Shown one piece after another: positions 1 through 10,671 of a stretch of 10,671 nt of DNA. Positions within the stretch are counted from its first letter, which is position 1, and the number at the start of each line of letters is the position of its first letter. The stretch lies in contig CAKZTQ010000026.1 in assembly GCA_937921735.1 (NCBI GenBank), positions 1 through 10,671 of the forward strand. Reading direction: 5' to 3'. Under the pieces are notes generated by a model. The model was given only the letters and a program-made list of their open reading frames with translations. It ran no database searches and was not told the origin of the DNA. The translations under genes were made by a program, and so were the position numbers. This DNA is from an uncultured archaeon. Its GTDB lineage: Archaea; Hadarchaeota; Hadarchaeia; Hadarchaeales; Hadarchaeaceae.

Positions 1-257
1 CTGGGGGTGCCGTTCAAGCCAGGAGAGGCCCAGGAGAGGCCGCAGAGCGAGAAGTAGCCCAGCTCGCCAGGTATGTCCCACCGCAGCCTGAAGCGGACGA
101 CGAAGTTGTCGCCCGGGGCGACGGCGATCGTCCCGCCCCCCGGCTCCCGAACCACGCCGGGGGCGAGGACCGAGGGGACATTCATCGCCAGCGGCAAAGC
201 CAGCGCTAGGACGAGGGAAAGTACGACCAGCCCGCGCCAAGCCCCCCCGATCCTCAA
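1..257 (-). CDS. Secreted/surface protein of unknown function, N-terminal 85 codons only (runs off the left edge; absent from the ORF track)
   Basis: Manual translation from TTG at 257: MRIGGAWRGLVVLSLVLALALPLAMNVPSVLAPGVVREPGGGTIAVAPGDNFVVRFRLRWDIPGELGYFSLCGLSWASPGLNGTP..., open to the edge. AAGGAGG (270-264) lies 6 nt upstream. The basic N-terminus and hydrophobic stretch look like a Sec signal peptide, and 'VAPGDNFVVRF' resembles the start of a beta-sandwich. Confidence 0.8.
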   Translation of the reverse strand, partial: MRIGGAWRGLVVLSLVLALALPLAMNVPSVLAPGVVREPGGGTIAVAPGDNFVVRFRLRWDIPGELGYFSLCGLSWASPGLNGTP

Positions 258-326: not shown

Positions 327-359
327 AATTTGATTATTGTAATGATATTATATCAAATT
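327..359. repeat. AT-rich inverted repeats (candidate operator or terminator)
   Basis: AATTTGAT (327-334) pairs with ATCAAATT (352-359) across a 17-nt spacer. A palindrome TGATAT-T-ATATCA sits at 343-355. Confidence 0.45.
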
Positions 360-747
360 AGCTCGGGGCGTACGGCCACTTGCTCTTTGCGCCCGAGAGC
401 TCGCCGAGGAAGGCGCTCCTGGTCGCCGAGTCTACGTATGGCCACGCCGACTTGATCTTCGACGCCCTGCCGAGGAGGACACTTCGTGTGACGGTAAAGG
501 TCGCCATCGTCGAGATCACGCTCCCCCCATCGTCCTCCAGCAACAGGACGACCCTCTCCACTGCCTCCGCTTGCGGGTGTGCCACGTTTTCCAGCAGGGT
601 CACATCAGCGGGGGTGGTACCGCTCCAGACGACGCGCTCACCCCGCTCCTCGCCGCCATATGTCAGGAATTTCAACACCAGTTTAGAGCCGATGTCGAGG
701 TGGAGGTCGATGTCTAAGCTGACCTTGTACAGCGTGGCGAGACCGAA
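358..747 (-). repeat. Shared C-terminal domain, copy 1 (129 aa, ends KSKWPYAPS)
   Basis: Aligns by eye with 1799..2185 at about 65/129 identities with one 2-aa gap. Confidence 0.92.
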
Positions 748-1761
748 CTCTATTCTCCCCGTGGTGAACCGCTTGGGCTCGGACCACAGGCCCACGTGCG
801 TCGAATTGTCTCCTGACCTCACCCGCCAGTACCAAGTGCCGCAAGAGAGCGGGGACTCGACCATGTAAGAGGTGGAGGACCATCCCTTGACCGTGATGAC
901 GTTGGTCGTGAAGGAGTTGTCTTGAGCCAACTGGAGGTCGTAGGAGCTAGCGCCTGAAACGGCGGTCCATCTAAGCGTCGGGATGGGGCTAGCTCTCACG
1001 TTGTCCTCGGGCTGGAGGAGCGTGGGCGCTTGGATCGTCAGCCCAGCATGGATCATCGCCGTGTACCATATGTTCGCCGTAAGCTGGACGGCCGAGCGGA
1101 GCCTATTCTCGGTTATGTCGCGAAGGGTGGAGTTCCAGAGGATGTCCTGCTGCAGCCAGTAGCTAAGCTTGTCCGGGGTATAGCCGGTGTAGCCGTAGCT
1201 CTCCTCGAGCATCGCCATGGTCGCGGCAAAGACGTTCTCCACCTTGAAGGGGAGATACCCATGCGTGGGGATCGATATCTCGTTTAGGCGGCTATTCACC
1301 TCGCTCTCGAATGCCCCGTGGTTGCCGCCGGGGTTGTAGTCAGAGGTGGCGTGCAGCGGCATGCTTGCGTCGGCTAGGTAATGGCTTATGACGCCCATCA
1401 GCTGCGCGGCCCCCGTCCAGTTTTTGGCGATGAGCCTTTGCACGAGCAGCGCGAAGTTGTCCTCCACCGTCCAAGGCAGCACACCCTCCGAGTACTGTTG
1501 CCTCGTGTGGGGCACGTCGACGTGGTAGTAGTGCCTATATCTTTCTTGGGGGTCGCTGCTCTTCCATTGGTCGGGCTTCGTGGAGTAGTCCTTGATGGTC
1601 GCCAGGTAAGCGGAGAAGAACGAGCCGCTCGAAAAGATGCGGCTGGCGTTGTCCGCTACGGAGATGTGGGTGGTCCCGCCCCAAGCGTGAACGGTCAGCA
1701 CCTGTGCCGAACACGCGAAGATAACTACGGCAATTGTTAAAGCGATGGTGGTCCGTTTCAT
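358..1761 (-). CDS. Secreted zinc-dependent phospholipase C / S1-P1 nuclease-family protein with Fn3-like domain and C-terminal 'WPY' domain
   Basis: Signal peptide MKRTTIALTIAVVIFACSAQVLTVHA is followed by WGGTTH (mature N-terminal Trp and His Zn ligands typical of the PLC/P1 fold), then PDQWK, HYYHVD, HYLADASMPLH and HGAFES. An Fn3-like segment follows (APTLLQP...LRWTAVSGASSYDLQLA...GTWYWRVR...WS). Start moved from 1815 to ATG 1761, which gives a clean signal peptide and no overlap with the upstream gene. Confidence 0.88.
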   Translation of the reverse strand: MKRTTIALTIAVVIFACSAQVLTVHAWGGTTHISVADNASRIFSSGSFFSAYLATIKDYSTKPDQWKSSDPQERYRHYYHVDVPHTRQQYSEGVLPWTVEDNFALLVQRLIAKNWTGAAQLMGVISHYLADASMPLHATSDYNPGGNHGAFESEVNSRLNEISIPTHGYLPFKVENVFAATMAMLEESYGYTGYTPDKLSYWLQQDILWNSTLRDITENRLRSAVQLTANIWYTAMIHAGLTIQAPTLLQPEDNVRASPIPTLRWTAVSGASSYDLQLAQDNSFTTNVITVKGWSSTSYMVESPLSCGTWYWRVRSGDNSTHVGLWSEPKRFTTGRIEFGLATLYKVSLDIDLHLDIGSKLVLKFLTYGGEERGERVVWSGTTPADVTLLENVAHPQAEAVERVVLLLEDDGGSVISTMATFTVTRSVLLGRASKIKSAWPYVDSATRSAFLGELSGAKSKWPYAPS

Positions 1762-1798
1762 CCCGTCTCGGCCCCCTTTCATCATTATATCCCCACTA

Positions 1799-2185
1799 TT
1801 AAGAGCTTGGCGCATAAGGCCACCTGCTCTTTATGCCCGAGATCTCCGAGAGCAATGCCACCTTCTCCCCCGATGAGGCGTACGGCCACCCGCCCTTGAT
1901 CTCGCTGGTCCTCCTCATGAGGTCACCCTTGGAGACGGTGAAGCTAGCGATCGTCCGTGGCAAGCCATCCCTGACCAATGCCAGCACGACGTTTTCCACG
2001 GCTAGGCCTTGTGGGTGCCCCACGTTTTCCTCCAGCACCAAGCGCGTGGGCCCAGCGCTTACCCATAAGACGTTTTCCCCTTGGTAAGTGCCGGAGTAGG
2101 TGTAGAACTTGAGGATGAGCTCGGAGTTCTCCTCAACGTACGCGTCCAAGCTCAAGCTGAGCCGGTAGAGGGTCGCCAGCCTAAA
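1799..2185 (-). repeat. Shared C-terminal domain, copy 2 (128 aa, ends KSRWPYAPSS)
   Basis: Blocks conserved with copy 1: F.LATLY..SL, L.LKF.TY.G...GE.V.W, ENV.HPQ..AVE.VVL, T.A.FTV, IK..WPY, E.SG.KS.WPYAPS. Confidence 0.92.
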
Positions 2186-5100
2186 CCTTGTCACCGAGAC
2201 CATCAAGGGCTGCGTGTAAGAGGCGCCACCCTCGCCATGCACCTCCACCCGGACGTAGTTGGTCCACGCTGGCGGGCTATAGGCGGCGACACCACCGACG
2301 AGCGGCCTGTTGTCGAGGAGCACGCCGTTGTCCCCCACGAAGAGCACGTAGTCGCCCTCCGCGTTGACTACAATGGCGTTCTCATTCTCCACCGCTATGT
2401 TATAGATTGCGGGTCCCACGCCGGGGCCAGGGGGCGAGCTCCGCACGCAGTAGAAGTTGCCCACGCGCAGGCTGCGAAGGATCGCTTCCCTCGTCAGCTC
2501 TTGGGCATTGACCACCACCCATCCGAAACGTCCCACTTGCGAGCTCGAGTGGGCATCGTCGCTCATCACGCCGTAGACCAACCTGTTTTCCGCCAGCAGG
2601 GCGTCCCAATATTCCCTAGCCTTCGCCCCGCTCGCCTCGTCGCCGTGTATCTCGATGTGCCTCAGCCCCGACTCGACCGCCTGCCTCAGGTTCTCCAACG
2701 GGAATGGGGCGCCGGAGTAGCCCGGATGCGCGGCGATGGGAATGCCCCCCTGCGCCAGCACGTCCGCCACCCACTCTGCGACGCTTCGGGTCGCCCAGCC
2801 CTCGATCAAGTTCTCCACGGATATCGCCACCATGTGCGGTCCTCCGCCCCTAGTTACCTCCTCACCGCTTATGCCTAGGAAGTTGGGTGGGTCCGTGAAG
2901 ACCTCGGAGTCCGTGATGTAGTTGTGGTCGGTTATCGCGTTGAAGCTATAGCCGCTGTAGCGATAGGCGAACATCATCTCGCTTGCGGTGTTCTCGCCGT
3001 CGGAGTTCTCGGTGTGAGAGTGCAGGTTGCCCCTGAACCAGTAGGGGTAGTTCTTGTAAGGGCTAAAGATCGAGATTCTGCCCGTCCTGACGCCCGCTTG
3101 GGCTATCGCCGTGGAGCTTGCGAAGTCGCTCGAGCCCGAGCTGGAGGAGACGATTACCACTATCCTACTCGAGCTCCCGCTCGCCGCGTCGCTGGGCACA
3201 CGGACGCTCACCGTCGCCGTCCCCGCCTCACCCGGCGCCAACGTGAGCAAGGAGGGCGAAATGCCCGAGACCCAGCCGACGTTGTCGCTGGCCACCAAGC
3301 TGTAGTTCTCCTCGAGCCCGCTCAAGTTGACGACGATTGCACGGTAGTAAAGCGTCACCCCAGGCGCGCCCTTCTCAAAGTCCGCGGACAGGCTCACCGA
3401 GAGTGCGGGCAGGGGGGCGTCGGAGATCTCCAAGTGGGGGCGCTTGTCGACCTCCCCCCATTCCTTAGACTCGAACGCGTAGATAAAGGCGTAAGGTGCA
3501 ACTTGGTTCTCGCTCTCCGCCCTCAAGCAGAGGCTCACGAGCTTGTCTCCGAGCAGCTCGCCAGCGACGAAGGAGGTGACGTCCCAAGAGTACCAAGAAT
3601 TTATGGTCGTCACGTTCACGGAGGCAAGGACATCGCCGTGAGGGGGCTGGTTGTTCCATGTGATCGTGTTCTCGTTCCAAGTGTCGTCGAGCACCGCCCT
3701 AGCTTGCACGCCACCGCCGGAGGCGCCGGTCATCCTCCAGCAGTAGTTGCGTAACCTAGCCGTGGCTAGGGCGAAGTTCTCTGGGATGGCCGAGAGGTTA
3801 AATTTGAAGAAACCTCTCTCGTTCTTGTAGGCAGAGCTCAGGTCGTTTCCGACGTAGACGTAGGTCTTAGCGCCGTAATTGCTGTCTGGATAGCCCTCCG
3901 CCACCTGAGCGTCGTCGCTGGGAGGGAGCGCAATCCTCCCCGCCCTCGCGGAGCAAGTAGCGGAGGCGCTGATGGGAGGATCGAGCGAGGTAGCGGAGAT
4001 GGTGATGTTGTCAACCGACCCAAACACCTCTTCCGGCGGTATCGAGACGAGTAGGAGGGTGACCCTGCTCTCGCCTGAGGGCACAACAAGCGAGCCCTCG
4101 AGAAATTCCAGCCCCCATCCCCTCGTGTCGGTCGCGGAGAGGGTTAGCGTGGCGTCTCGACCGAGGAAATTCGAGACGATGACGGCAAAGCTCAGGTTCT
4201 CGCCAGGTGAGCCGCTTTTAGAGCTCGGCACCACCTCCATCGCCAAGCCCTCCGCCCTCGCCGTACAGCTGGCATCGGCCCGCACCGCTCCATCGGTCAA
4301 CGAGATGGCAGTGACCGAGACCACGTTAGATGAGCCGAGGCTCGCGGTCGGGGGGACGGTGACGGTCAGCTGGACGGACGTGACCCCGCCCGCGGTGAGC
4401 GAGACGAGGTCCTCCGAGAGCGCGAGCTCCCAGCCCTCGATGTCACTCGCAGCGAGCGAGTAGTTGTCCGCCGCGTTTCCCGAGTTCGTAACCGTCACCT
4501 CGTAGCTCAGCGTCCCTCCGGGCGGACCCCGGGCTTCGGGGGGCGAAATGGAAAGCGTTACCTCGTACACGGGCACGCGCACTAGGCCATAGCCGTAACA
4601 GTTATCCCAGCCCGGCGCGCCTAGGTCCTCCGCGAGGTCGCGCAGGAGCGACCTGACCCGGTCGTTGGAGAGGCTGGGGCACCTCGCCCAGAGCAGCGCG
4701 GCTGCGCCAGCCACGTGGGGTGAAGCCATGGAGGTGCCGCTCAGCGTCGCGTAGCTCGAGCCCCTGTAGGTGGAGTAGATGCCAACCCCTGGCGCGGCCA
4801 GCTCGACCTCCGGCCCCTTCGAGCTCCAAGAGGGCACGTCGTCGTTGGCATCGGTGGCGGCCACGGCGATCACGCTCTCATACTTTGCAGGGTAGCTCAC
4901 GCCGCCATCGCCCTCGTTGCCCGCGGCCGCGACGAGGAGGAGCCCCTGAAGGTAGGCTTTGGAGCAGGCCAACCTGAAGGAGTAGAAATCCTCGCTCGCG
5001 CCGAAGCTCATGTTCACCACCTGCATCCCGTTGCTGACGCACCAGTCTATGCCCTCCACCACATCGCTCAGGTAGCCCTCGCCGTTGTCCGCCAGCACCT

Positions 5101-5722
5101 TCACCGCGTAGAGCCAGGCGGCCGGCGCGACGCCCACCACACCTAGATCGTTGGCGACCGCGGCGACGATGCCCGCGACGTGGGTGCCATGTCCGTTGAC
5201 GTCGTTCCACCTCGCCGGGTCGGTGCTGTTTTCGGCGCCCACCAGCGAGATGCCTCCCTTGACATTCGCCGCTAGGTCGGGGTGATCGTACTGGATGCCG
5301 GTATCGAGGATTGCCACCTTCACGCCCTCGCCCGTCGAGGTAGGCCAAGCGTTGGGGGCACCTATCCTGCTCACGCCCCAAGGCACTTGCTCCCCCAGCG
5401 CGCGCACGATGGCGTCGGGCTCCACGCGCAGTACCGCGGCGCTGGACCTCAGCCGCTCGAGGGCTTCGCGGGGCACCTCCGCCGCCAGCGCGGGGATGAT
5501 GCTATATATAGTGAGCACCCTCCCGCCGAAGCCGGCGATAAGCTCGGCGTCCGGCCTTTCCCTGAAGAGGACTATGACCCGAACCCCTCGCGAGGGCGCC
5601 GCGGCAGGCGTGGGGGCAAAAGAGAGAAAAAAGGTCGCGACGAGGGCGGCAGCGATGATCCTAGGGTGGATCATGCGCGGCAAGCGGCTGGATCGCGCGA
5701 AGTCGGAGCAATCGGGGCTCAA
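1799..5722 (-). CDS. Secreted multidomain S8 subtilisin-like serine protease: I9-like propeptide, S8 domain, Ig-like (NEW3/COG1470-like) repeats, DNRLRE/CBM96-like domain, PHP (CehA/McbA-like) metallohydrolase domain, C-terminal 'WPY' domain
   Basis: The catalytic triad is intact: ILD140TG, NGH178GTHVAG, GTS331MASPHVAG, with oxyanion AAAGN269. Propeptide ends at VEPDAIVRA. DNRLRE-like motifs: DAQV..GYPDSNYG, FFKFNLS, WNENTITWNNQP, WDVT, RPHLEI. PHP motifs: GNLHSHT..SDG, AITDHN, GEE, AHP, SDDAH. The TTG start at 5722 has AGGAGG 6 nt upstream; the alternative start is ATG 5674. Confidence 0.93.
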   Translation of the reverse strand: MSPDCSDFARSSRLPRMIHPRIIAAALVATFFLSFAPTPAAAPSRGVRVIVLFRERPDAELIAGFGGRVLTIYSIIPALAAEVPREALERLRSSAAVLRVEPDAIVRALGEQVPWGVSRIGAPNAWPTSTGEGVKVAILDTGIQYDHPDLAANVKGGISLVGAENSTDPARWNDVNGHGTHVAGIVAAVANDLGVVGVAPAAWLYAVKVLADNGEGYLSDVVEGIDWCVSNGMQVVNMSFGASEDFYSFRLACSKAYLQGLLLVAAAGNEGDGGVSYPAKYESVIAVAATDANDDVPSWSSKGPEVELAAPGVGIYSTYRGSSYATLSGTSMASPHVAGAAALLWARCPSLSNDRVRSLLRDLAEDLGAPGWDNCYGYGLVRVPVYEVTLSISPPEARGPPGGTLSYEVTVTNSGNAADNYSLAASDIEGWELALSEDLVSLTAGGVTSVQLTVTVPPTASLGSSNVVSVTAISLTDGAVRADASCTARAEGLAMEVVPSSKSGSPGENLSFAVIVSNFLGRDATLTLSATDTRGWGLEFLEGSLVVPSGESRVTLLLVSIPPEEVFGSVDNITISATSLDPPISASATCSARAGRIALPPSDDAQVAEGYPDSNYGAKTYVYVGNDLSSAYKNERGFFKFNLSAIPENFALATARLRNYCWRMTGASGGGVQARAVLDDTWNENTITWNNQPPHGDVLASVNVTTINSWYSWDVTSFVAGELLGDKLVSLCLRAESENQVAPYAFIYAFESKEWGEVDKRPHLEISDAPLPALSVSLSADFEKGAPGVTLYYRAIVVNLSGLEENYSLVASDNVGWVSGISPSLLTLAPGEAGTATVSVRVPSDAASGSSSRIVVIVSSSSGSSDFASSTAIAQAGVRTGRISIFSPYKNYPYWFRGNLHSHTENSDGENTASEMMFAYRYSGYSFNAITDHNYITDSEVFTDPPNFLGISGEEVTRGGGPHMVAISVENLIEGWATRSVAEWVADVLAQGGIPIAAHPGYSGAPFPLENLRQAVESGLRHIEIHGDEASGAKAREYWDALLAENRLVYGVMSDDAHSSSQVGRFGWVVVNAQELTREAILRSLRVGNFYCVRSSPPGPGVGPAIYNIAVENENAIVVNAEGDYVLFVGDNGVLLDNRPLVGGVAAYSPPAWTNYVRVEVHGEGGASYTQPLMVSVTRFRLATLYRLSLSLDAYVEENSELILKFYTYSGTYQGENVLWVSAGPTRLVLEENVGHPQGLAVENVVLALVRDGLPRTIASFTVSKGDLMRRTSEIKGGWPYASSGEKVALLSEISGIKSRWPYAPSS

Positions 5723-5880: not shown

Positions 5881-6537
5881 ATGAACCTGCTCCAGCTAAC
5901 ACCCGAGGGGAAAATAGTGATGGAATTGGCAAGCGGCGCCAAGAGCTTCACCGAGCTAAAGCACCTCACCAAGTTAAGCGATCGCTGGCTATCCAAAAAG
6001 CTCGAGGAGCTGGCGCATGCGGGTGTGGTCGAGCTGCGGAATGGCAAATACGGCCTGATCAAGCCCGAGGTCATTCACCGCGACCCCCTTGCGTCGATCT
6101 ACTTTAGAGCGAGGGCATCGCCGGAGGGAAAGGCCAAGCTCATCGCGGATGAACTGAGCCGAGATCGCAGGGTGCTGGCGGTCGTGGTCTTCGGGAGCGT
6201 CGCCAAGGGCGTCGCCGAGGAGGAAAGCGATGTGGACCTGCTGGTCATCACCGAGGGAGGGGTAGAGCTGGACGAGGAGGTCTACGGGCTCTCCTTCAAG
6301 TACGATGTGCCGATCGAGGCGATCTTCATGAGCTACGAGGAGCTGCTGTCTCACGCTCAAGCCAAGACCACCTTTTTGCTGGGGGTGCTCGAAGGGTATG
6401 ATGTTCTCCACGATCGCGCTGGCCTCGAGGGCCTCCTTTCCTTCCTCAAGGCGAAGGTTGAGGAGAGGTTCTCGTACGACAAGGAGGCAGGGGCTTGGAT
6501 TCTAAGGAGCGCGTCGCCTACCTCGACACCGCGATAG
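5881..6537 (+). CDS. Winged-HTH + minimal nucleotidyltransferase (MNT, Pol-beta superfamily) fusion; putative antitoxin
   Basis: N-terminal HxlR/ArsR-like wHTH (KSFTELKHLTKLSDRWLSKKLEELAHAGVVE...KYGL). The nucleotidyltransferase motif FGSVAKGVAEEESDVDLLV matches GS-X10-DXD. It lies directly upstream of a HEPN gene. Confidence 0.88.
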   Translation: MNLLQLTPEGKIVMELASGAKSFTELKHLTKLSDRWLSKKLEELAHAGVVELRNGKYGLIKPEVIHRDPLASIYFRARASPEGKAKLIADELSRDRRVLAVVVFGSVAKGVAEEESDVDLLVITEGGVELDEEVYGLSFKYDVPIEAIFMSYEELLSHAQAKTTFLLGVLEGYDVLHDRAGLEGLLSFLKAKVEERFSYDKEAGAWILRSASPTSTPR

Positions 6538-6929
6538 CTCAGCTGGAGGAGGCGAGGCTAGTTCTGGAGCACGGGCGGTACGCCTTGGCATCCTTCCTGA
6601 GCGCGTCTAGCGCCGAAAGCGCGACGTCCGCGCTGATCGTCTCCCTCGGGAGCAGGCCGAGCAAGAAGCACCGAAACTCGTTGGTGCTTCACCGCCTGTC
6701 GAGCTCCGCGGGGGAGCCGCTGAGGTCTAGGTTGCGCCCGCTGATCGAGAGCATGAAGAAACTCGAACCCCACATCACGAAGGCGAGGTATCCGATAAGG
6801 AAGGGCACCGAGCTCCTGCCGCCTGTGAAATTTTACTCAGCCGACGTCGCGAGGGAGCTTTTCGAGGAGGCAAGCCACGTCGTGGACTCAGTCCAGAAGT
6901 TGCTGACGGAGGCGCCGAACGGGTTTTGA
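6495..6929 (+). CDS. HEPN domain protein (RYP-type); putative toxin of an MNT-HEPN pair
   Basis: Pattern A..QLEEA...LEHGRY..ASF.S...AE.A..AL...G.RPSKKH...L....ARYP...YS...A.E....A..V. The TTG start has AAGGAGG (6481-6487) 7 nt upstream. It overlaps the MNT gene by 43 nt. Confidence 0.85.
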   Translation: MDSKERVAYLDTAIAQLEEARLVLEHGRYALASFLSASSAESATSALIVSLGSRPSKKHRNSLVLHRLSSSAGEPLRSRLRPLIESMKKLEPHITKARYPIRKGTELLPPVKFYSADVARELFEEASHVVDSVQKLLTEAPNGF

Positions 6930-7669
6930 CCGCGATTTCGATTAGCATGAAGGCTCGATGTCCGCCCGCGTTTGCAAAAATTAGGCCTCACGAGGGCATA
7001 GCTACGCGGGACGACTCGTCGATGGGGGGCAAGGCCTTGGGGGAGCCGACGCAGCAGCGGGGTGGGTCTCCTCTCGGCTGCCCTCCTTCGCCTGAGCCAG
7101 GAGCCCAGCAGGAAGGCGGCGAGGGCAGCGACCAACGCGAGGGCAGCGATGGTTGGAAAGGAGCTGCCCGTCGACACCTCGCCAGCGGTCTCCACCTTGG
7201 CCCTCGAGATGAGCTCGATCGCCCAGAGCTCCCCCGCCAGCGGCTGCCTGGTGACCGAGATCCAGGCCTCCCATCGCTGGTTGGTCAGGTTCTCCTGCGC
7301 GGGGATGTTGAGCGCCAGCTCCACCTCGGCATAGGAGTTCTCGCCCACCACGACGAGCGCGTTCTCCACGGTGGTCGAGCCATCCACGACGAAATAGAAC
7401 CAAGCGGTGTCGGGGATGGGGTGGTAGCCCTCCCTCACCTCGTTCTCTGGCGGCCTTTTGACGGAGATCGAGAAGGCTCGCTCGACGTTTTCGTGGTTTA
7501 TGATCACCAGCTTTCGCTCCAGCCGGCAGAACCTCCCCACGGGCACGTTTGGCGCGGTGAACTCCATCGGCGAGAGCTCAAAGGGCTCCTGCGCCAGCGC
7601 GGCCGAGGCGAGTGCCACGATCGCCAATGAAAGGACCGCGACGAGAGCACCCGGCTTCTCCCCGTTCAT
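6833..7669 (-). CDS. Membrane-anchored single beta-sandwich protein, paralog B (PapD/DUF916-like by pattern); C-terminal extension suspect
   Basis: The likely true start is ATG 7669, which overlaps the stop of paralog A as ATGA. Signal peptide MNGEKPGALVAVLSLAIVALASAALA-Q, a ~140-aa domain about half identical to paralog A, a TM helix (FPTIAALALVAALAAFLLGSWL) and RRRR. The first 84 aa of the 362-aa track ORF are an off-frame overlap with paralog A. Confidence 0.78.
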   Translation of the reverse strand: MNGEKPGALVAVLSLAIVALASAALAQEPFELSPMEFTAPNVPVGRFCRLERKLVIINHENVERAFSISVKRPPENEVREGYHPIPDTAWFYFVVDGSTTVENALVVVGENSYAEVELALNIPAQENLTNQRWEAWISVTRQPLAGELWAIELISRAKVETAGEVSTGSSFPTIAALALVAALAAFLLGSWLRRRRAAERRPTPLLRRLPQGLAPHRRVVPRSYALVRPNFCKRGRTSSLHANRNRGQNPFGASVSNFWTESTTWLASSKSSLATSAE

Positions 7670-8313
7670 CGATGGGAGAAAACCCGTCCTCCGACCCCCT
7701 TCTTGGCCTTCCTCCTCCTCGCCCAGATGCCCAGCGCCAAGATCGCCGCCGCCACCGCTATCGCCACGAACAATAGGAAGGGCCAAGACCGCCTCGAGAC
7801 TTCGCCGACCGTCTCCAACTTCATCCTCACCGTAGGCGCAGGGGCCACTACCTCGCCGGGTTCCGCCATCAGCTCTAGGGTTATCCAAGCCTCCCACCTC
7901 TGGTTGGTCAGGTTCTCCCAAGCCGGTAGGTCAAGCGCCACCCCGACCTCGCTCCAGTTCTCCCACTTCCCCTCCACCTCTCTGCCGACTATCAAGACCG
8001 CGTTCTCCACGCTCATGGAGCCGTCGTAGATGAAGTACACCCAAGTGGTGTCGGGGATGGGCGAGTAGCCAGGCCTCACTTGGTCACCGGGAGGTCTCAC
8101 CACGGAGATCGAAACGGCGCGAGGGATGTTGTCGTTGTGCGAGACGATCAGCTTTCGCTCCAGCTGGACGAACATGCCCACCGGCACGTCCCAAGCCACG
8201 AACTCAGCAGGGCTTGCGGCGACCCTTCGCTCCTGTGCTAGGGCAGGGGCGGCCAGGACGAGCGCTAGCGTCGCGGCTAGAAAGGAGGTCGCGAGGTACT
8301 TGGATCTCGACAT
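7666..8313 (-). CDS. Membrane-anchored single beta-sandwich protein, paralog A (PapD/DUF916-like by pattern), 215 aa
   Basis: ATG 8313 is preceded by AAGGAGATGGGG. Signal peptide MSRSKYLATSFLAATLALVLAAPALA-Q; C-terminal TM (WPFLLFVAIAVAAAILALGIWA) plus RRRKAKK. Shares VPVG, LERKL, PIPDT, VENA and ENLTNQRWEAWI with paralog B. Confidence 0.85.
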   Translation of the reverse strand: MSRSKYLATSFLAATLALVLAAPALAQERRVAASPAEFVAWDVPVGMFVQLERKLIVSHNDNIPRAVSISVVRPPGDQVRPGYSPIPDTTWVYFIYDGSMSVENAVLIVGREVEGKWENWSEVGVALDLPAWENLTNQRWEAWITLELMAEPGEVVAPAPTVRMKLETVGEVSRRSWPFLLFVAIAVAAAILALGIWARRRKAKKGVGGRVFSHR

Positions 8314-8338
8314 GGTTCCCCATCTCCTTTCAGAAGAT

Positions 8339-8379
8339 AAAAATAAAGGTTTTGAGGAGGCAGCTCGCGGCCCCTCCTC
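8339..8379 (-). terminator. Hairpin + T-rich tract after the large surface protein gene (terminator/attenuator or RNA-stabilising hairpin)
   Basis: The minus strand reads GAGGAGG-GGCCGCGAGCTG-CCTCCTC (7-bp perfect stem, 8379-8354), then AAAACCTTTATTTTT, starting 11 nt after the TAA stop. Confidence 0.55.
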
Positions 8380-8390
8380 CGAGCTCAAGC

Positions 8391-10671
8391 TTAAGCCCTT
8401 ACCGCCGTCAGCGTGACCACGGTCCACATCCTGCTGGGCACGGTTATCGAGCTCGGCGCCTGTATCTTGAGGTCGAAGCCGAATTCCTCTCCGGGCCTCA
8501 GCCCAGAGACTAGCGGGTTGTCGTTCTTGTTCAGCACGTTCCAAGCTGGAGCCGTGCCATACCACATCGCATACCTGTCGAGACCGATGTCCCCGTACTC
8601 GTCGAGCTCCCATCTCGCCACGGGCGCACCCGGCTCGCTCTTAGCATCGCTGCCCTTGATGGTGACGTTTACGTCCTTGTTGCCCACGTTCCTCACCGTG
8701 AAGTAGCTGCCGGTGGTCTCGGCGGTCTCGGTCTCGTCGAGGATGCCGAAGTGCCACGTGGTCGGCCATACCTCGATGGCTATGACCTCGACCTCGACGG
8801 TCAGCTTGATCCAGCCCTGCGGTACCCTCGGTCCGGGCACCAGCACGTGCGCGTCCACGCTAGCGTCGTCGCTGACTCCAGTACCCGTTGCGGTGACGGT
8901 TATCGTGTTCCACACGCTCGTCCTGAGGTCGCTGGGTATGGTGACCTCGAGGATCGCCTGGCCGAAGTTGCAGCCTGGCAGCGTCAAGCTGCTGGGTTCC
9001 AGCGTGTAGTTCCACGCCGGATAGCCTCGCTCGTTGTCCCTCACGTTTTGGCTCACGCTCAGGGAGTAGGTGTCCTGGACGTTGCCGAGGTTCTTCACCT
9101 TGACGATCCACCTGAGCTTGCTCCCCGGCGTGCCGGTCTGGACCTCCCATGGCAGGATGTCCACCCTCACGCCTCGAGCTTCGGCCACGTGGACCGTGCA
9201 GGTCTCGCTGATCACCGCGTTCTCGGTGTCGTCGCCCGTGCCGGTGGCCATCGTGCCCCTGGCCTCGACGGTTATGGTGTCGGTGGTGCAGCCGACCGCG
9301 TCCTTGGGCACGGTGACGCTGAGCACCGCGATGTCTTCCTTGCCGGGCTCGATGTAGAGCTCGATAGGCATGAGCTCCAGCATCCAGCCCTCGGTATCGC
9401 TGACGCTCAGGACGTACTTGTCTGCCAGCACGCCGGTGTTCTTAACTATCACCTTGAAGGTCAGCGGGTCGTAGCTCTTGTCGCCCCACTCTGGGTTGAT
9501 CACCAGCTTAGCCTCTTGGTGGCTGGGCTCGATCACCACCTCGACGCCCCTGAGCAGGAGCGCCCTGCCCATGCTGTGCGCTTTAGCGGTACCCTGACCC
9601 ACCGCTGGGGCCCAGAAGGACTCCCGGCCGGTGGCGGTGACCGTTAGGGTGTCGCGAGTGCAGTACACGTCGCTGCCTATGTTCTCCTCGACGACGAAGG
9701 AGAAGCTCTCGCCTGGGTTGAGGAACACCAGTGCCGGCACGCTGTACGTCAGCTGCCAGCCAAGCGCGCTCGTGACGCTGATGGCGTAGTTGTCCCAGGC
9801 GGTGCCCGTGTTGGTCACCGTCACCTCGAAGGTCACGATCTCCTCGAACCTGGCGCGGTTCTCGCTGGGCACGATCGACACCTCAACGCTCCAGCTTGGC
9901 CACTCGAGCAGCGAGGTCGGGGAGTAGACGCCCAGCTTGTCCGTGCCAACTAGCCCCATGTACGAGCTGCCTATTGCCGTCGTGGTGTCCACCGCGAGTA
10001 TCATATTGTAAGCAGCTCCGCCATAGTTGTCGACGGGATCGTAAACGCTATCGCTCTGGAAGCACCAGCCGAAGCCCAGGGCGCGCAGGATCTTGTTGTG
10101 CACTCGGTAGAAGTTGTAGCCAGCGAAGTCGGCGTTGTTGAAGATGAGCAGGACGCCCCCCGCGTTGACCCAGCTATTTATGTTGTCGACGTACTCGTCG
10201 GGCAACAATGTCGGGTCGCCGCCGGACCACCTAGCGCCAAGCTGGTAGCCGGCTACTATTAAGACATCGTTTTCTCCGATTATCCCAGTCCCCTTCAGCT
10301 GGGTGTTGTCCTCGGTTACGGTGTAGCCGAGGGCTGTGAGGGCAGCTCGAATCTGTGACACCCTGGCCCCTCTCTGGAATGTCCCATAGCCGGTATCCCA
10401 CAATATCTTAGTGGCGCCGGGCTTAGCCCATTGTATCGCGGCGTGCAGGAACTTGTCGAGGTAGGGGTACGGGTTTGCTGCAGCGTTCCACCTAAGGTTG
10501 TCGAGGGTGGATGTCAAACCCAACGCGACCACGGCGCCGCTGCCCACCTTTTGCGCCGCGACGATCGGCGGGCGATCGCCAGGCGCGTAGAGCCTGTAGG
10601 CAGGCGGCGTAGCGGGTTGACTATTGTCGAAGGCATTGGCCTGGCCCCTGGCTACGACGCCCTGCGTCCAC
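8391..10671 (-). CDS. Large cell-surface protein, 5'-truncated: class I GATase-like (DUF4350-like) domain, three Ig-like (NEW3/COG1470-like) repeats, C-terminal pilin/WxL-like domain
   Basis: The frame stays open past GTG 10547 to the window edge (WTQGVVARGQANAFDNSQPATPPAYRLYAPGDRPPIVAAQK-VGSG...), so the real start is outside the window. GATase-like motifs: KILWDTGYG, LGYTV, DVLIV, INSWVNAGGVLLI, NKILRALG, DSVYD. Three repeats V.V.I.P...F.V.V.N.G...D.Y.LSV. No C-terminal TM helix. Confidence 0.88.
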   Translation of the reverse strand, partial: WTQGVVARGQANAFDNSQPATPPAYRLYAPGDRPPIVAAQKVGSGAVVALGLTSTLDNLRWNAAANPYPYLDKFLHAAIQWAKPGATKILWDTGYGTFQRGARVSQIRAALTALGYTVTEDNTQLKGTGIIGENDVLIVAGYQLGARWSGGDPTLLPDEYVDNINSWVNAGGVLLIFNNADFAGYNFYRVHNKILRALGFGWCFQSDSVYDPVDNYGGAAYNMILAVDTTTAIGSSYMGLVGTDKLGVYSPTSLLEWPSWSVEVSIVPSENRARFEEIVTFEVTVTNTGTAWDNYAISVTSALGWQLTYSVPALVFLNPGESFSFVVEENIGSDVYCTRDTLTVTATGRESFWAPAVGQGTAKAHSMGRALLLRGVEVVIEPSHQEAKLVINPEWGDKSYDPLTFKVIVKNTGVLADKYVLSVSDTEGWMLELMPIELYIEPGKEDIAVLSVTVPKDAVGCTTDTITVEARGTMATGTGDDTENAVISETCTVHVAEARGVRVDILPWEVQTGTPGSKLRWIVKVKNLGNVQDTYSLSVSQNVRDNERGYPAWNYTLEPSSLTLPGCNFGQAILEVTIPSDLRTSVWNTITVTATGTGVSDDASVDAHVLVPGPRVPQGWIKLTVEVEVIAIEVWPTTWHFGILDETETAETTGSYFTVRNVGNKDVNVTIKGSDAKSEPGAPVARWELDEYGDIGLDRYAMWYGTAPAWNVLNKNDNPLVSGLRPGEEFGFDLKIQAPSSITVPSRMWTVVTLTAVRA
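8844..9890 (-). repeat. Three tandem ~105-125-aa Ig-like protein repeats
   Basis: Cores FEVTVTNTGTAWDNYAISV, FKVIVKNTGVLADKYVLSV and WIVKVKNLGNVQDTYSLSV, followed respectively by DTLTVTATG, DTITVEARG and NTITVTATG. Confidence 0.85.

What the first reader, a model, noticed from the sequence alone, without database searches (positions are those of the whole stretch)
6833..8816. WxL/DUF916-like (usher-less chaperone-pilin-like) surface module in an apparent archaeon
Seen: the large protein ends in a ~141-aa domain (8394-8816) with an alternating N-terminal strand IKLTVEVEVIAIEV, then WHFG, FTVRNVGN, a W-E-L, and a terminal strand P...WTVVTLTA. It has no membrane anchor. The next two genes encode signal peptide + one beta-sandwich starting 'SP.EF...VPVG' + TM + basic tail. 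Known: Firmicute WxL (csc) clusters pair anchor-less WxL-domain proteins with a TM-anchored DUF916/DUF3324 partner. Csu/SCPU pilins share the 'FG...terminal strand' layout and are bound by PapD-like chaperones through strand complementation. Inference from pattern only: the two TM paralogs capture or polymerise the C-terminal domain, displaying the large protein on the cell surface or at a fibre tip.
Basis: inference. Interest (0 to 1): 0.75.

Follow-up and report, generated by a model that had tools for sequence, protein, structure and literature searches.

The report
Archaeal surface-protein anchoring module
An uncultured archaeon encodes a large secreted protein whose conserved tail domain is almost always followed by genes for two small membrane-anchored proteins shaped like bacterial pilus chaperones, most likely a way of holding the large protein on the cell surface.

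Summary
On the minus strand, a large secreted multi-domain protein (8391-10670, cut by the contig end) ends in a conserved beta domain of about 145 aa with no membrane anchor. Two paralogous genes follow: A at 7666-8313 and B at 6833-7669. Each encodes a signal peptide, one beta-sandwich, a TM helix and a basic tail.

The gene order is strongly conserved. 16 of 20 metagenome loci found through the tail domain carry 1-3 such paralog genes downstream, as does one related genome.

The tail domain is a PapD/MSP/pilin-like sandwich. Its matches are weak and mostly to donor-strand pilins. No WxL match was found.

Neither part reaches any Pfam threshold for WxL, DUF916 or PapD. There is no second DUF3324-like domain, and no small pilin was found.

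The single complex prediction gave no verdict.

Best reading, at confidence 0.45: a trans-anchoring or capture module that resembles the WxL and Pam systems of bacteria without an outer membrane, but is not a member of either. A polymerised fibre is less likely.

The parts
8391..10670 (-). 3' part (759 codons plus stop) of a large secreted multi-domain surface protein. It holds a ThuA/DUF4350-like alpha/beta 'mid' domain, three CARDB/fn3-like Ig repeats and the C-terminal domain. The 5' end is cut by the contig end.
   Evidence: ORF and translation. Weak Pfam hits to fn3_6, Ig_VWA7 and NPCBM_assoc. Full-length orthologs P0007 and P0009 (943-956 aa) have an N-terminal signal sequence.
8394..8843 (-). 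Conserved C-terminal domain (CTD), 150 aa including the Pro-rich linker LVPGPRVPQG. It is a beta-sandwich with no TM anchor, always at the extreme C-end.
   Evidence: Alignment of 17 sequences. AF2 model with pLDDT 90.9. It is the most conserved segment in distant relatives: 54-62% identity against 37-56% for the Ig repeats and 36-45% for the mid domain.
8757..8801 (-). Long amphipathic N-terminal strand of the CTD (WIKLTVEVEVIAIEV). Only its last part is paired in the monomer model. It is a candidate edge or donor strand.
   Evidence: Conserved as [WV][IA]K[LV]xVExE[VI]xAI[EQ][VLM]WP. In the model, residues 1-22 have no strand and pLDDT 63-76. The role is inferred.
8314..8390 (-). 77-nt spacer between the large gene and gene A. 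It holds the inverted repeat GGAGGAGG...CCTCCTC, then TTTATTTTTA, then AGGAG 8 nt before the ATG.
   Evidence: Read from the sequence. The consensus scan reported nothing here. Whether this is a terminator or an own promoter is not tested.
7666..8313 (-). Paralog A, 215 aa: signal peptide, PapD/WxLIP-like Ig ectodomain (residues ~27-176), TM helix (177-198), basic tail.
   Evidence: Translation. AF2 model with pLDDT 90.9. Fold matches.
6833..7669 (-). Paralog B, 278 aa, with the same architecture. Its start overlaps A's stop (ATGA). The long tail after the TM helix and RRRR is poorly conserved and overlaps the convergent HEPN gene.
   Evidence: Translation. 53% identity to A. The tail is unaligned in ortholog P0006. 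A ~92% identical contig diverges at 6966.

Best explanation
This is a conserved three-gene surface-display module of an archaeon.

The large protein is secreted. It carries a variable payload followed by an invariant C-terminal beta-sandwich (CTD) that serves as its attachment module.

The two downstream genes encode type-I membrane proteins. Each places one PapD/WxLIP-like Ig domain outside the cell, on a C-terminal TM helix with a basic cytoplasmic tail.

Proposed mechanism (inferred, not shown): the ectodomain of one or both paralogs binds the CTD by beta-strand pairing or complementation. Candidate surfaces on the CTD are its long N-terminal edge strand and its C-terminal strand. This would tether the anchor-less large protein to the membrane.

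The module would then work like the membrane-anchored WxLIP/ElrE-WxL pair of Bacillota and the PamC/PamD chaperones of CPR bacteria. It appears to act as a stable anchor or capture device rather than as an assembler of a long fibre.

Shown: gene content, topology signals, folds, conservation and synteny. Inferred: the physical contact and its geometry.
For: 1. Synteny.
- The CTD alignment found 20 metagenome loci with 43-79% identity.
- 16 of the 20 have 1-3 paralog genes downstream on the same strand: two genes in 14 loci, three in L022, one in L030.
- In 13 of these the paralog ORF starts within about 310 nt of the CTD stop. In L019, L022 and L026 an inserted gene lies between.
- The related genome G003 has the same order.
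- One contig in each of runs X2 and X3 spans B, A and the CTD gene at ~92% identity.

2. The CTD is always at the extreme C-end, with no TM helix after it. It is the best conserved segment while upstream domains are reshuffled. P0020 has mid 78% and Ig 46%; P0007 has mid 41% and Ig 83%. CBM96 is present in some relatives only.

3. A paralogous large protein in the same genome, G000:C15:49387-51861, has no CTD. It ends in its own Ig domain, TM helix and basic tail. Anchoring therefore occurs in cis there, and the CTD version needs a partner.

4. Paralog A model: pLDDT 90.9.

5. In the CTD Foldseek list, about two-thirds of the 45 rows shown are subunits of donor-strand fibres.

6. 13 of 120 family members give sub-threshold PF06030 (WxLIP_PGBD) hits, best E 5.3e-5. 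It is the third commonest family, after FixG_C (40 members) and fn3_5 (34).

7. A and B are translationally coupled through an ATGA overlap.
Against: 1. No contact has been shown.

2. The fold match to WxLIP is tied within about 1 Z with eukaryotic ASH/HYDIN/CEP192 domains and with glycosidase accessory domains. It may therefore reflect a common Ig arrangement.

4. Profile comparison links the paralog ectodomain weakly (probability 52%, E 1.4e-4) to the ordinary Ig repeat before the CTD, not to any chaperone family. The profile finds no PDB sequence; the best E is 0.29.

5. The Atlas places the ectodomain nearest to CARDB/NPCBM_assoc-type proteins, with all scores under 0.9.

6. L024 has 455 nt and L027 has 478 nt downstream of the CTD gene, and neither shows the start of a paralog there.

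7. The first and second paralogs do not form two ancient clades: 7 label changes on the tree. A fixed A/B heterodimer role is therefore not indicated.

8. The module is rare. Strong pairs occur in 2 of the 66 genomes of the phylum that were searched.
Confidence: 0.45

Rival explanations
1. This is a true usher-less donor-strand fibre. The paralogs are transient membrane chaperones that prime an incomplete CTD fold. CTDs then polymerise head-to-tail, each inserting its N-terminal strand (WIKLTVEVEV...) into the next. The result is a polyadhesive fibre with one payload per subunit.
For: - The CTD has a long conserved amphipathic N-terminal strand that is largely unpaired in the monomer model.
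- Its Foldseek list is dominated by donor-strand pilins.
- Two TM-anchored paralogous chaperones are also the layout of the CPR Pam system (PMC13278184, passages read).
- The Elr preprint describes an adhesin that both accepts and donates a strand and sits inside the fibre (10.64898/2026.10.17.759780, section 14).
Against: - No small shaft pilin with this domain was found. There was none among proteins of 30-416 aa in the word-index search. There was none in the 22 loci apart from a 27-aa remnant in L026. There was none in the assembled genome at E < 1.
- The assembled genome holds only one CTD gene.
- The CTD strand does not fit the WxL donor consensus [S/T]-x-[G/A]-x-[V/I]-x-F given in the preprint (section 8), judged.
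- The paralogs have one domain, not the two-domain L-shape of chaperones.
Confidence: 0.12
2. There is no direct partnership. A and B are ordinary small membrane-anchored Ig proteins of the envelope, such as spacers or adhesins. They lie next to the large gene only because surface-protein genes cluster and are co-regulated.
For: - The contig is an island of secreted proteins: an S8 subtilase with CBM96, a Zn-phospholipase C/S1-P1-like protein and another family member.
- A C-terminal TM helix plus basic tail is the common anchor of many surface proteins in this genome.
- The ectodomain resembles common CARDB/FixG_C/fn3_5-type Ig domains.
Against: - Adjacency holds across CTD divergence down to 43% identity, while every other neighbour changes.
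- Insertions of foreign genes between the CTD gene and the paralogs have not dispersed them.
- The close family was found strongly only where a CTD gene is present: G000 and G003.
Confidence: 0.25
3. This is a two-component envelope lattice of the SlaA/SlaB type. The large protein would be an outer canopy subunit, and A and B its membrane-anchored stalks.
For: It has the same logic as Sulfolobales slaA-slaB (recalled, not searched here): an anchor-less large secreted protein is followed by a gene for a beta-sandwich protein with a C-terminal TM helix.
Against: - The module is rare within the phylum: 2 of 66 genomes.
- The large proteins are a multi-copy, recombining family with enzyme-like or carbohydrate-binding payloads, namely ThuA/DUF4350-like and CBM96.
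- The paralogs have no coiled-coil stalk.
Confidence: 0.08
4. The CTD is a secretion or sorting signal that is recognised and removed, like the T9SS C-terminal domain. It would not be an attachment module.
For: It is a conserved beta-sandwich of similar size at the extreme C-terminus of otherwise diverse secreted proteins.
Against: - No protease, sortase or translocon gene is conserved beside it.
- The only conserved neighbours are the two Ig-TM proteins.
- A second, different C-terminal module is used by the neighbouring subtilase and PLC-like genes.
Confidence: 0.05

Closest known systems
WxL / Elr pilus clusters of Bacillota: ElrE = WxLIP (DUF916-DUF3324-TM) with WxL-domain proteins (bioRxiv 10.64898/2026.10.17.759780, abstract and sections 7, 8, 12-14 read; PMC10599100, abstract and section 2 read)
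   Same: - Both occur in organisms without an outer membrane.
- Both have a signal peptide, a PapD-like Ig ectodomain and a C-terminal TM helix.
[quoted passage not shown]
- WxLIP is the best structural match of paralog A.
   Different: - No PF06030, PF11797 or PF13731 match reaches threshold.
- The paralogs have one ectodomain, not two.
- There are two anchors and one CTD protein, instead of one WxLIP and at least two WxL proteins.
- There is no small WxL pilin and no LPxTG/sortase partner.
- The host is an archaeon without peptidoglycan.
- The preprint found the system only in Bacillota among 4,698 genera (section 12).
Pam pilus of CPR bacteria: PamC/PamD membrane-anchored chaperones, PamT tip pilin, PamR anchor (PMC13278184, abstract and passages read)
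   Same: Both have two paralogous PapD-like proteins with C-terminal TM helices in one operon, Ig-like partner domains and no usher.
   Different: - PamC and PamD are two-domain proteins.
- Pam operons encode several pilins.
- The only sequence echo is NF058579 (PamT) on the CTD, at E 0.083 and 12.3 bits against a cut-off of 240. This is not significant.
Classical chaperone-usher chaperones (PapD, FimC, Caf1M, CsuC)
   Different: - Those chaperones are soluble, periplasmic and two-domain, and work with an outer-membrane usher.
- No PF00345 match was found.
Chaperone-free archaeal donor-strand fibres: Sulfolobus threads, Pyrobaculum bundling pili, Pyrodictium cannulae, haloarchaeal Tat pili (PMC9715654, PMC9245690, 10.1101/2024.12.30.630787, PMC12337348; seen in the search listing only)
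   Same: These are archaeal, and the CTD gives weak Foldseek hits to 7ueg and 7pnb.
   Different: Those are small pilins that polymerise without dedicated membrane chaperones. Here the domain sits on ~950-aa proteins and is tied to two TM proteins.
SlaA/SlaB S-layer pair of Sulfolobales (recalled)
   Same: An anchor-less large secreted protein is held by a TM-anchored beta-sandwich protein encoded next to it.
   Different: No sequence or fold link was tested. The module here is rare and has a variable, enzyme-like payload.

Membership tests
WxL domain (PF13731), tested on the CTD | Match to the Pfam WxL model | tested here: not met
   hmmscan of the 141-aa CTD found 0 families at E <= 1. The Atlas nearest named cluster is WxL at only 0.81, which is a lead and not a match.
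WxL domain (PF13731), tested on the CTD | Two conserved Trp-x-Leu motifs on adjacent strands, in a domain of 160-190 aa (PMC9772566, passages) | tested here: inconclusive
   - One W-x-L is conserved: W78 is invariant and L80 nearly so, often as TWTL.
- The second Trp, W140, is invariant but reads W-T-[V/I/L], with L in 6 of 17 sequences.
- The domain is about 145 aa.
- Strand adjacency could not be checked, because the tools return no coordinates.
WxL domain (PF13731), tested on the CTD | The cluster also holds a small WxL-only protein | tested here: not met
   None was found in the word-index search of shorter proteins, in 22 loci or in the assembled genome. The genome is 83% complete, and a divergent pilin could escape detection.
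WxL domain (PF13731), tested on the CTD | Fold like a solved WxL domain (entry 9i25) | tested here: inconclusive
   No WxL chain appears among the rows shown by Foldseek or VIA. Absence from a top-50 list does not exclude similarity.
WxLIP (DUF916 PF06030 + DUF3324 PF11797 + TM) | PF06030 match above the cut-off of 27.3 bits | tested here: not met
   A and B give no hit at E <= 1. 13 of 120 family members hit at E <= 0.01. Those inspected score 16-23 bits, below the cut-off.
WxLIP (DUF916 PF06030 + DUF3324 PF11797 + TM) | Second Ig domain (DUF3324/HBD) and the NQIDKxxxYFDLK motif (PMC10599100) | tested here: not met
   The model has a single sandwich, residues ~30-172, followed by the TM helix. 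The motif is absent from the alignment.
WxLIP (DUF916 PF06030 + DUF3324 PF11797 + TM) | Signal peptide plus C-terminal TM helix; gene next to its partner's gene | tested here: met
   Of 120 family members, 59 have a C-terminal hydrophobic 19-mer, and 57 of those have basic residues after it.
WxLIP (DUF916 PF06030 + DUF3324 PF11797 + TM) | Fold of the N-terminal (PGBD) domain | tested here: met
Chaperone-usher chaperones (PapD_N PF00345 + PapD_C) | Pfam match, two-domain L-shape, soluble, usher gene present | tested here: not met
   There is no PF00345 hit. The protein has one domain plus a TM helix. No usher-like gene lies in the window.
Pam pilus proteins of CPR (NCBIfam NF058579 and relatives) | NCBIfam equivalog match | tested here: not met
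   PamT scores 12.3 bits against a cut-off of 240, E 0.083.
Donor-strand pilin (functional class) | Incomplete Ig fold with an open groove, completed by a foreign strand | not testable with these tools
   Model coordinates are not returned. The only complex job gave no verdict (see Tried and rejected).

The most novel reading that the evidence does not exclude
The module is a genuine archaeal donor-strand system, and the first outside bacteria that uses dedicated membrane-anchored PapD-like proteins. In this reading the single-domain paralogs complete an incomplete pilin-like CTD fold. They either hold it permanently, as strand-complemented membrane anchoring, or hand it over so that the ~950-aa enzyme-like proteins join into a shaft-less polyadhesive fibre. 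WxL (Bacillota), Pam (CPR) and this archaeal module would then be branches of one ancient assembly principle for cells without an outer membrane.
Probability: 0.3. Interest if true: 0.8.

Novelty: new variant of a known kind. Interest (0 to 1): 0.6.

Why it matters
Membrane-anchored PapD-like chaperones that work without an usher were described only in 2026. One account covers Gram-positive WxL/Elr pili and the other CPR Pam pili. The Elr preprint reports that system as confined to Bacillota.

A strictly syntenic and structurally similar pair in a free-standing, non-DPANN archaeal lineage would extend the principle to the third domain. It would also offer a minimal version for study: one Ig domain plus a TM helix, with no shaft pilin.

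It further suggests how archaea that lack a cell wall polymer might retain large secreted hydrolase-like or carbohydrate-binding proteins.

The claim is directly testable with three small recombinant domains.

Tried and rejected
1. Complex prediction (collected).
- Chains: A ectodomain, B ectodomain and CTD, with the CTD as partner.
- Tool verdict: no answer, meaning neither support nor evidence against.
- Scores were 0.65, 0.67 and 0.65.
- The two controls with the partner replaced scored 0.00 and 0.00.
- The control that kept the CTD and B but replaced A scored 0.76, so the mark was not met.
- The tool advises handing in the partner with each kept chain alone.

2. The search for related loci.
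- With alignment A2, the call failed because there was no conserved stretch.
- With A1 on genome contigs, it found no relative.

The taxa of the 116 family representatives are therefore unknown.

4. The A2 profile against PDB sequences gave nothing; the best E was 0.29.

5. hhalign of the paralog family against the CTD gave no alignment to the CTD. There was only a weak one to the preceding Ig repeat.

6. No WxL chain was seen in the CTD fold lists.

7. Sequencing runs.
- No RNA holder is listed.
- Two runs labelled metatranscriptomic are flagged as probably DNA.
- Nothing can be said about expression.

8. The consensus promoter and terminator scan found nothing relevant in 6700-8900.

9. The Atlas gave leads only: for the CTD, WxL at 0.81 and SCPU at 0.78; for the paralog, all scores under 0.9.

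10. Earlier-findings look-ups by place and by sequence returned nothing.

11. Literature. No paper in the library combined archaea with a membrane-anchored PapD-like chaperone. One search listed only chaperone-free archaeal donor-strand fibres and the bacterial systems. Supplements of the bioRxiv preprints could not be seen.

Full report
WHAT IS THERE

The window is a whole 10,671-b contig (G000:C26) of a 1.06-Mb assembly in 60 contigs, 83% complete. The organism is an archaeon: ribosomal protein S8e is present, and that family rings only in the four archaea among the 14 control genomes. Its phylum is small, with 66 species genomes in the collection.

A protein identical to the ortholog in the related genome G003 carries the NCBI label 'Candidatus Hodarchaeaceae archaeon'. 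I did not test that label. By recall, genomes of ~1.1 Mb would fit Hadarchaeota better than Asgard Hodarchaeales.

Three genes on the minus strand make up the finding:
- A large protein at 8391-10670. 759 codons are present, and the 5' part is lost at the contig end.
- Paralog A at 7666-8313, 215 aa.
- Paralog B at 6833-7669, 278 aa. Its ATG overlaps A's stop as ATGA.

The only correction is that the conserved C-terminal block starts about 9 residues earlier, at the Pro-rich linker LVPGPRVPQG.

THE LARGE PROTEIN AND ITS TAIL DOMAIN

Full-length orthologs are 943-956 aa (P0007-P0009). Their layout, in order, is:
- an N-terminal signal sequence (MR.E...RG + hydrophobic helix);
- a beta-rich N-domain;
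- an alpha/beta 'mid' domain with weak ThuA/DUF4350 echoes;
- several CARDB/fn3-like Ig repeats, in some relatives with a CBM96 module;
- the tail domain (CTD).

The CTD recurs at the extreme C-end of 16 database proteins, E 2e-71 to 4e-35, and of 20 metagenome loci. A TM helix never follows it.

In distant relatives it is the best conserved segment: 54-62% identity, against 37-56% for the Ig repeats and 36-45% for the mid domain. The upstream parts are mosaics. P0020 has mid 78% and Ig 46%; P0007 has mid 41% and Ig 83%. [quoted passage not shown]

No CTD was found in short proteins. This holds for the word-index search of proteins of 30-416 aa, for the 22 loci and for an hmmsearch --max over all ORFs of at least 50 aa in the assembly.

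THE TWO PARALOGS

A and B are 53% identical, E 6e-51. Each has:
- a cleavable-looking signal peptide (..ALA|QE);
- a ~145-aa ectodomain with the motifs SPxEF..VPxG, RPP..VR.GY.PIPD..W and ENLTNQRWEAWI;
- a TM helix and an Arg/Lys tail, which gives type-I topology by the positive-inside rule.

Neither matches any Pfam or NCBIfam model.

A profile search of 1.84 billion representatives found 116 relatives at E <= 1e-3, of which 34 are at <= 1e-10. Of the 120 sequences scanned, 59 have a C-terminal hydrophobic 19-mer and 57 of these have basic residues after it. The more distant half are secreted one- or two-domain proteins without a TM helix. Longer members place the family domain at the N-terminus of a stalk of further Ig domains.

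SYNTENY

Among 41 related genomes, only G000 and G003 have the pair. Among all 66 genomes of the phylum, strong pairs are again only in these two.

In G003 the order is: CTD protein, an inserted ATPase-like gene, then two paralogs.

The 20 metagenome loci fetched through the CTD have 43-79% identity. An HMM of the paralog family gives these results:
- 16 of the 20 have paralog genes downstream on the same strand.
- 14 loci have two, L022 has three and L030 has one.
- Some second copies are cut by contig ends.
- L021 and L035 carry identical paralogs, so they are not independent.

In 13 of the 16 the paralog ORF begins within about 310 nt of the CTD stop. In L019 and L022 a 449-aa ORF lies between. 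I read it as TnpB-like; this is untested. In L026 an ATPase-like gene on the other strand lies between, together with a 27-aa remnant of a CTD end.

The four loci without paralogs have little downstream DNA: 455 nt (L024), 478 nt (L027), 78 nt (L029) and 0 nt (L034). L024 and L027 had room to show the start of an adjacent paralog and do not.

Contigs in two further runs span B, A and the CTD gene at ~92% identity.

The first and second paralogs do not form two ancient clades. The tree needs 7 label changes, and the duplicates group within sub-lineages.

The neighbourhood is therefore conserved well beyond what shared ancestry of close strains would give.

A CONTRAST INSIDE THE SAME GENOME

G000:C15:49387-51861 encodes an 824-aa paralog of the large protein. 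It has no CTD and ends in its own Ig domain, TM helix and basic tail. One version is therefore anchored in cis. The CTD version has no anchor of its own and is tied to two Ig-TM genes.

FOLDS

Paralog A, modelled with a 46-sequence alignment, gives pLDDT 90.9 and pTM 0.74. It has one beta-sandwich at residues ~30-172.
- Foldseek finds 111 PDB matches at E <= 0.001. ASH/PapD-like domains and the chaperones FimC, Caf1M and FaeE lead the list.

The CTD, modelled with 17 sequences, gives pLDDT 90.9. Residues 1-22, which include WIKLTVEV, form no strand and have pLDDT 63-76.
- Foldseek gives one hit at E <= 0.001, the TasA fibre at 9.5e-4.
- Its list then consists mostly of donor-strand subunits: CfaB, PapA, CS17/CS20, FimA/FimI, Csu, TLP-1, CupE, the Pyrobaculum bundling pilus and the Sulfolobus thread. 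These make up about two-thirds of the 45 rows shown.
- No WxL chain is listed.

SEQUENCE-LEVEL LINKS ARE FAINT

- 13 of 120 family members give PF06030 (WxLIP_PGBD) hits at E <= 0.01, best 5.3e-5. The hits I inspected were all below the cut-off. They come after FixG_C (40 members) and fn3_5 (34).
- The family profile finds nothing in PDB sequences.
- hhalign links it weakly to the Ig repeat before the CTD: probability 52%.
- The CTD has one conserved W-x-L (often TWTL). It has a second invariant Trp in W-T-[V/I/L], with L in 6 of 17 sequences.
- Its strand does not fit the WxL donor consensus quoted in the Elr preprint (section 8).

HOW IT MOST LIKELY WORKS

Shown:
- An anchor-less secreted protein with an invariant C-terminal sandwich.
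- Two type-I membrane proteins with a PapD/WxLIP-like ectodomain.
- Strict adjacency across deep divergence.
- A cis-anchored paralog in the same genome.

Inferred: the ectodomains bind the CTD by strand pairing or complementation and hold the large protein at the membrane. I give this 0.45.

A true polymerising fibre gets 0.12. No shaft pilin was found and the assembly holds only one CTD gene.

Mere co-location of surface genes gets 0.25. An S-layer-type canopy and stalk gets 0.08. A cleaved sorting signal gets 0.05.

COMPARISON WITH WHAT IS KNOWN

The closest known systems are these:
- The WxL/Elr pilus. [quoted passage not shown] Tip adhesins carry a C-terminal WxL module with a variable payload (preprint sections 7, 8, 14).
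- The CPR Pam pilus, which has two TM-anchored PapD-like chaperones (PMC13278184).

The module works like these on present evidence but is not a member of either. It fails their Pfam and NCBIfam models, the two-domain chaperone architecture, the small pilin requirement and the taxon. The preprint found the system only in Bacillota among 4,698 genera (section 12).

Known archaeal donor-strand fibres are chaperone-free (listing only).

Notes from this scan report similar clusters in DPANN archaea. Those are unchecked leads, not support.

VERDICT

This is a new variant of a known kind: a minimal, archaeal, apparently pilin-less counterpart of the membrane-anchored chaperone/attachment-domain systems. 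Contact between the parts is still unproven.

Noticed in passing
window 358-1815 (-) and 1799-5722 (-); also G000:C38 and L006:497-3781 (-): A second, different anchor-less C-terminal module of ~130 aa (...KFYTYGG...IKS(R/A)WP(Y/F)AP) is shared by four proteins: the S8 subtilase (with CBM96 and a PHP-like part), the Zn-phospholipase C/S1-P1-like protein, a fragment on C38 and the G003 subtilase. It has no Pfam hit. It may be another attachment or sorting domain.
   Followed up: partly
window 3-257 (-): This is the N-terminus (MRIGGAWRGLVV...) of another member of the large-protein family, running off the contig start. Further fragments lie on C48, C15 and C38, so the family is multi-copy and breaks the assembly.
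   Followed up: partly
N-termini of P0007-P0020 and window 3-257 (-): The signal sequences read MR(T/I)E..(K/R)G(F/L)(T/S)SILL.... A basic residue, then Gly, then a hydrophobic run resembles an archaeal class III (pilin-type) signal as well as a Sec signal. This was not tested.
   Followed up: no
window 5881-6537 (+) and 6495-6929 (+): An overlapping pair of genes encodes a nucleotidyltransferase (with an N-terminal HTH) and a HEPN protein. They are convergent with, and overlap, the unconserved tail of paralog B.
   Followed up: no
L019:3506-4855, L022:10576-11925, L026:7958-9322 (-), L006:7679-8872 (-): The spacer between the CTD gene and the paralogs is a repeated insertion site. L019 and L022 hold a 449-aa TnpB-like ORF. 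L026 and G003 hold ATPase-like genes. L026 also keeps a 27-aa duplicate of the CTD end. The names are my reading and were not tested.
   Followed up: partly
paralog A residues 133-137 (window ~7903-7917) and homologs: The most conserved family motif, ENLT(N/G/D)Q, contains an N-x-T sequon. It could be a conserved N-glycosylation site or a purely structural motif.
   Followed up: no
window 6966-9800: A ~92% identical copy of the module (B, A and the CTD gene on one contig) is held by runs recorded as hot-spring metagenomes. The near-identical holder is recorded as a marine metagenome. The relative diverges at 6966, inside B's long tail.
   Followed up: partly
distant members of the paralog family (e.g. 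P0059, P0066, P0069, P0078): About half of the 120 family members lack a TM helix. Many of these are ~290-300-aa secreted proteins with two tandem copies of the domain, a size and layout reminiscent of soluble two-domain chaperones. Their taxa and neighbours are unknown.
   Followed up: no
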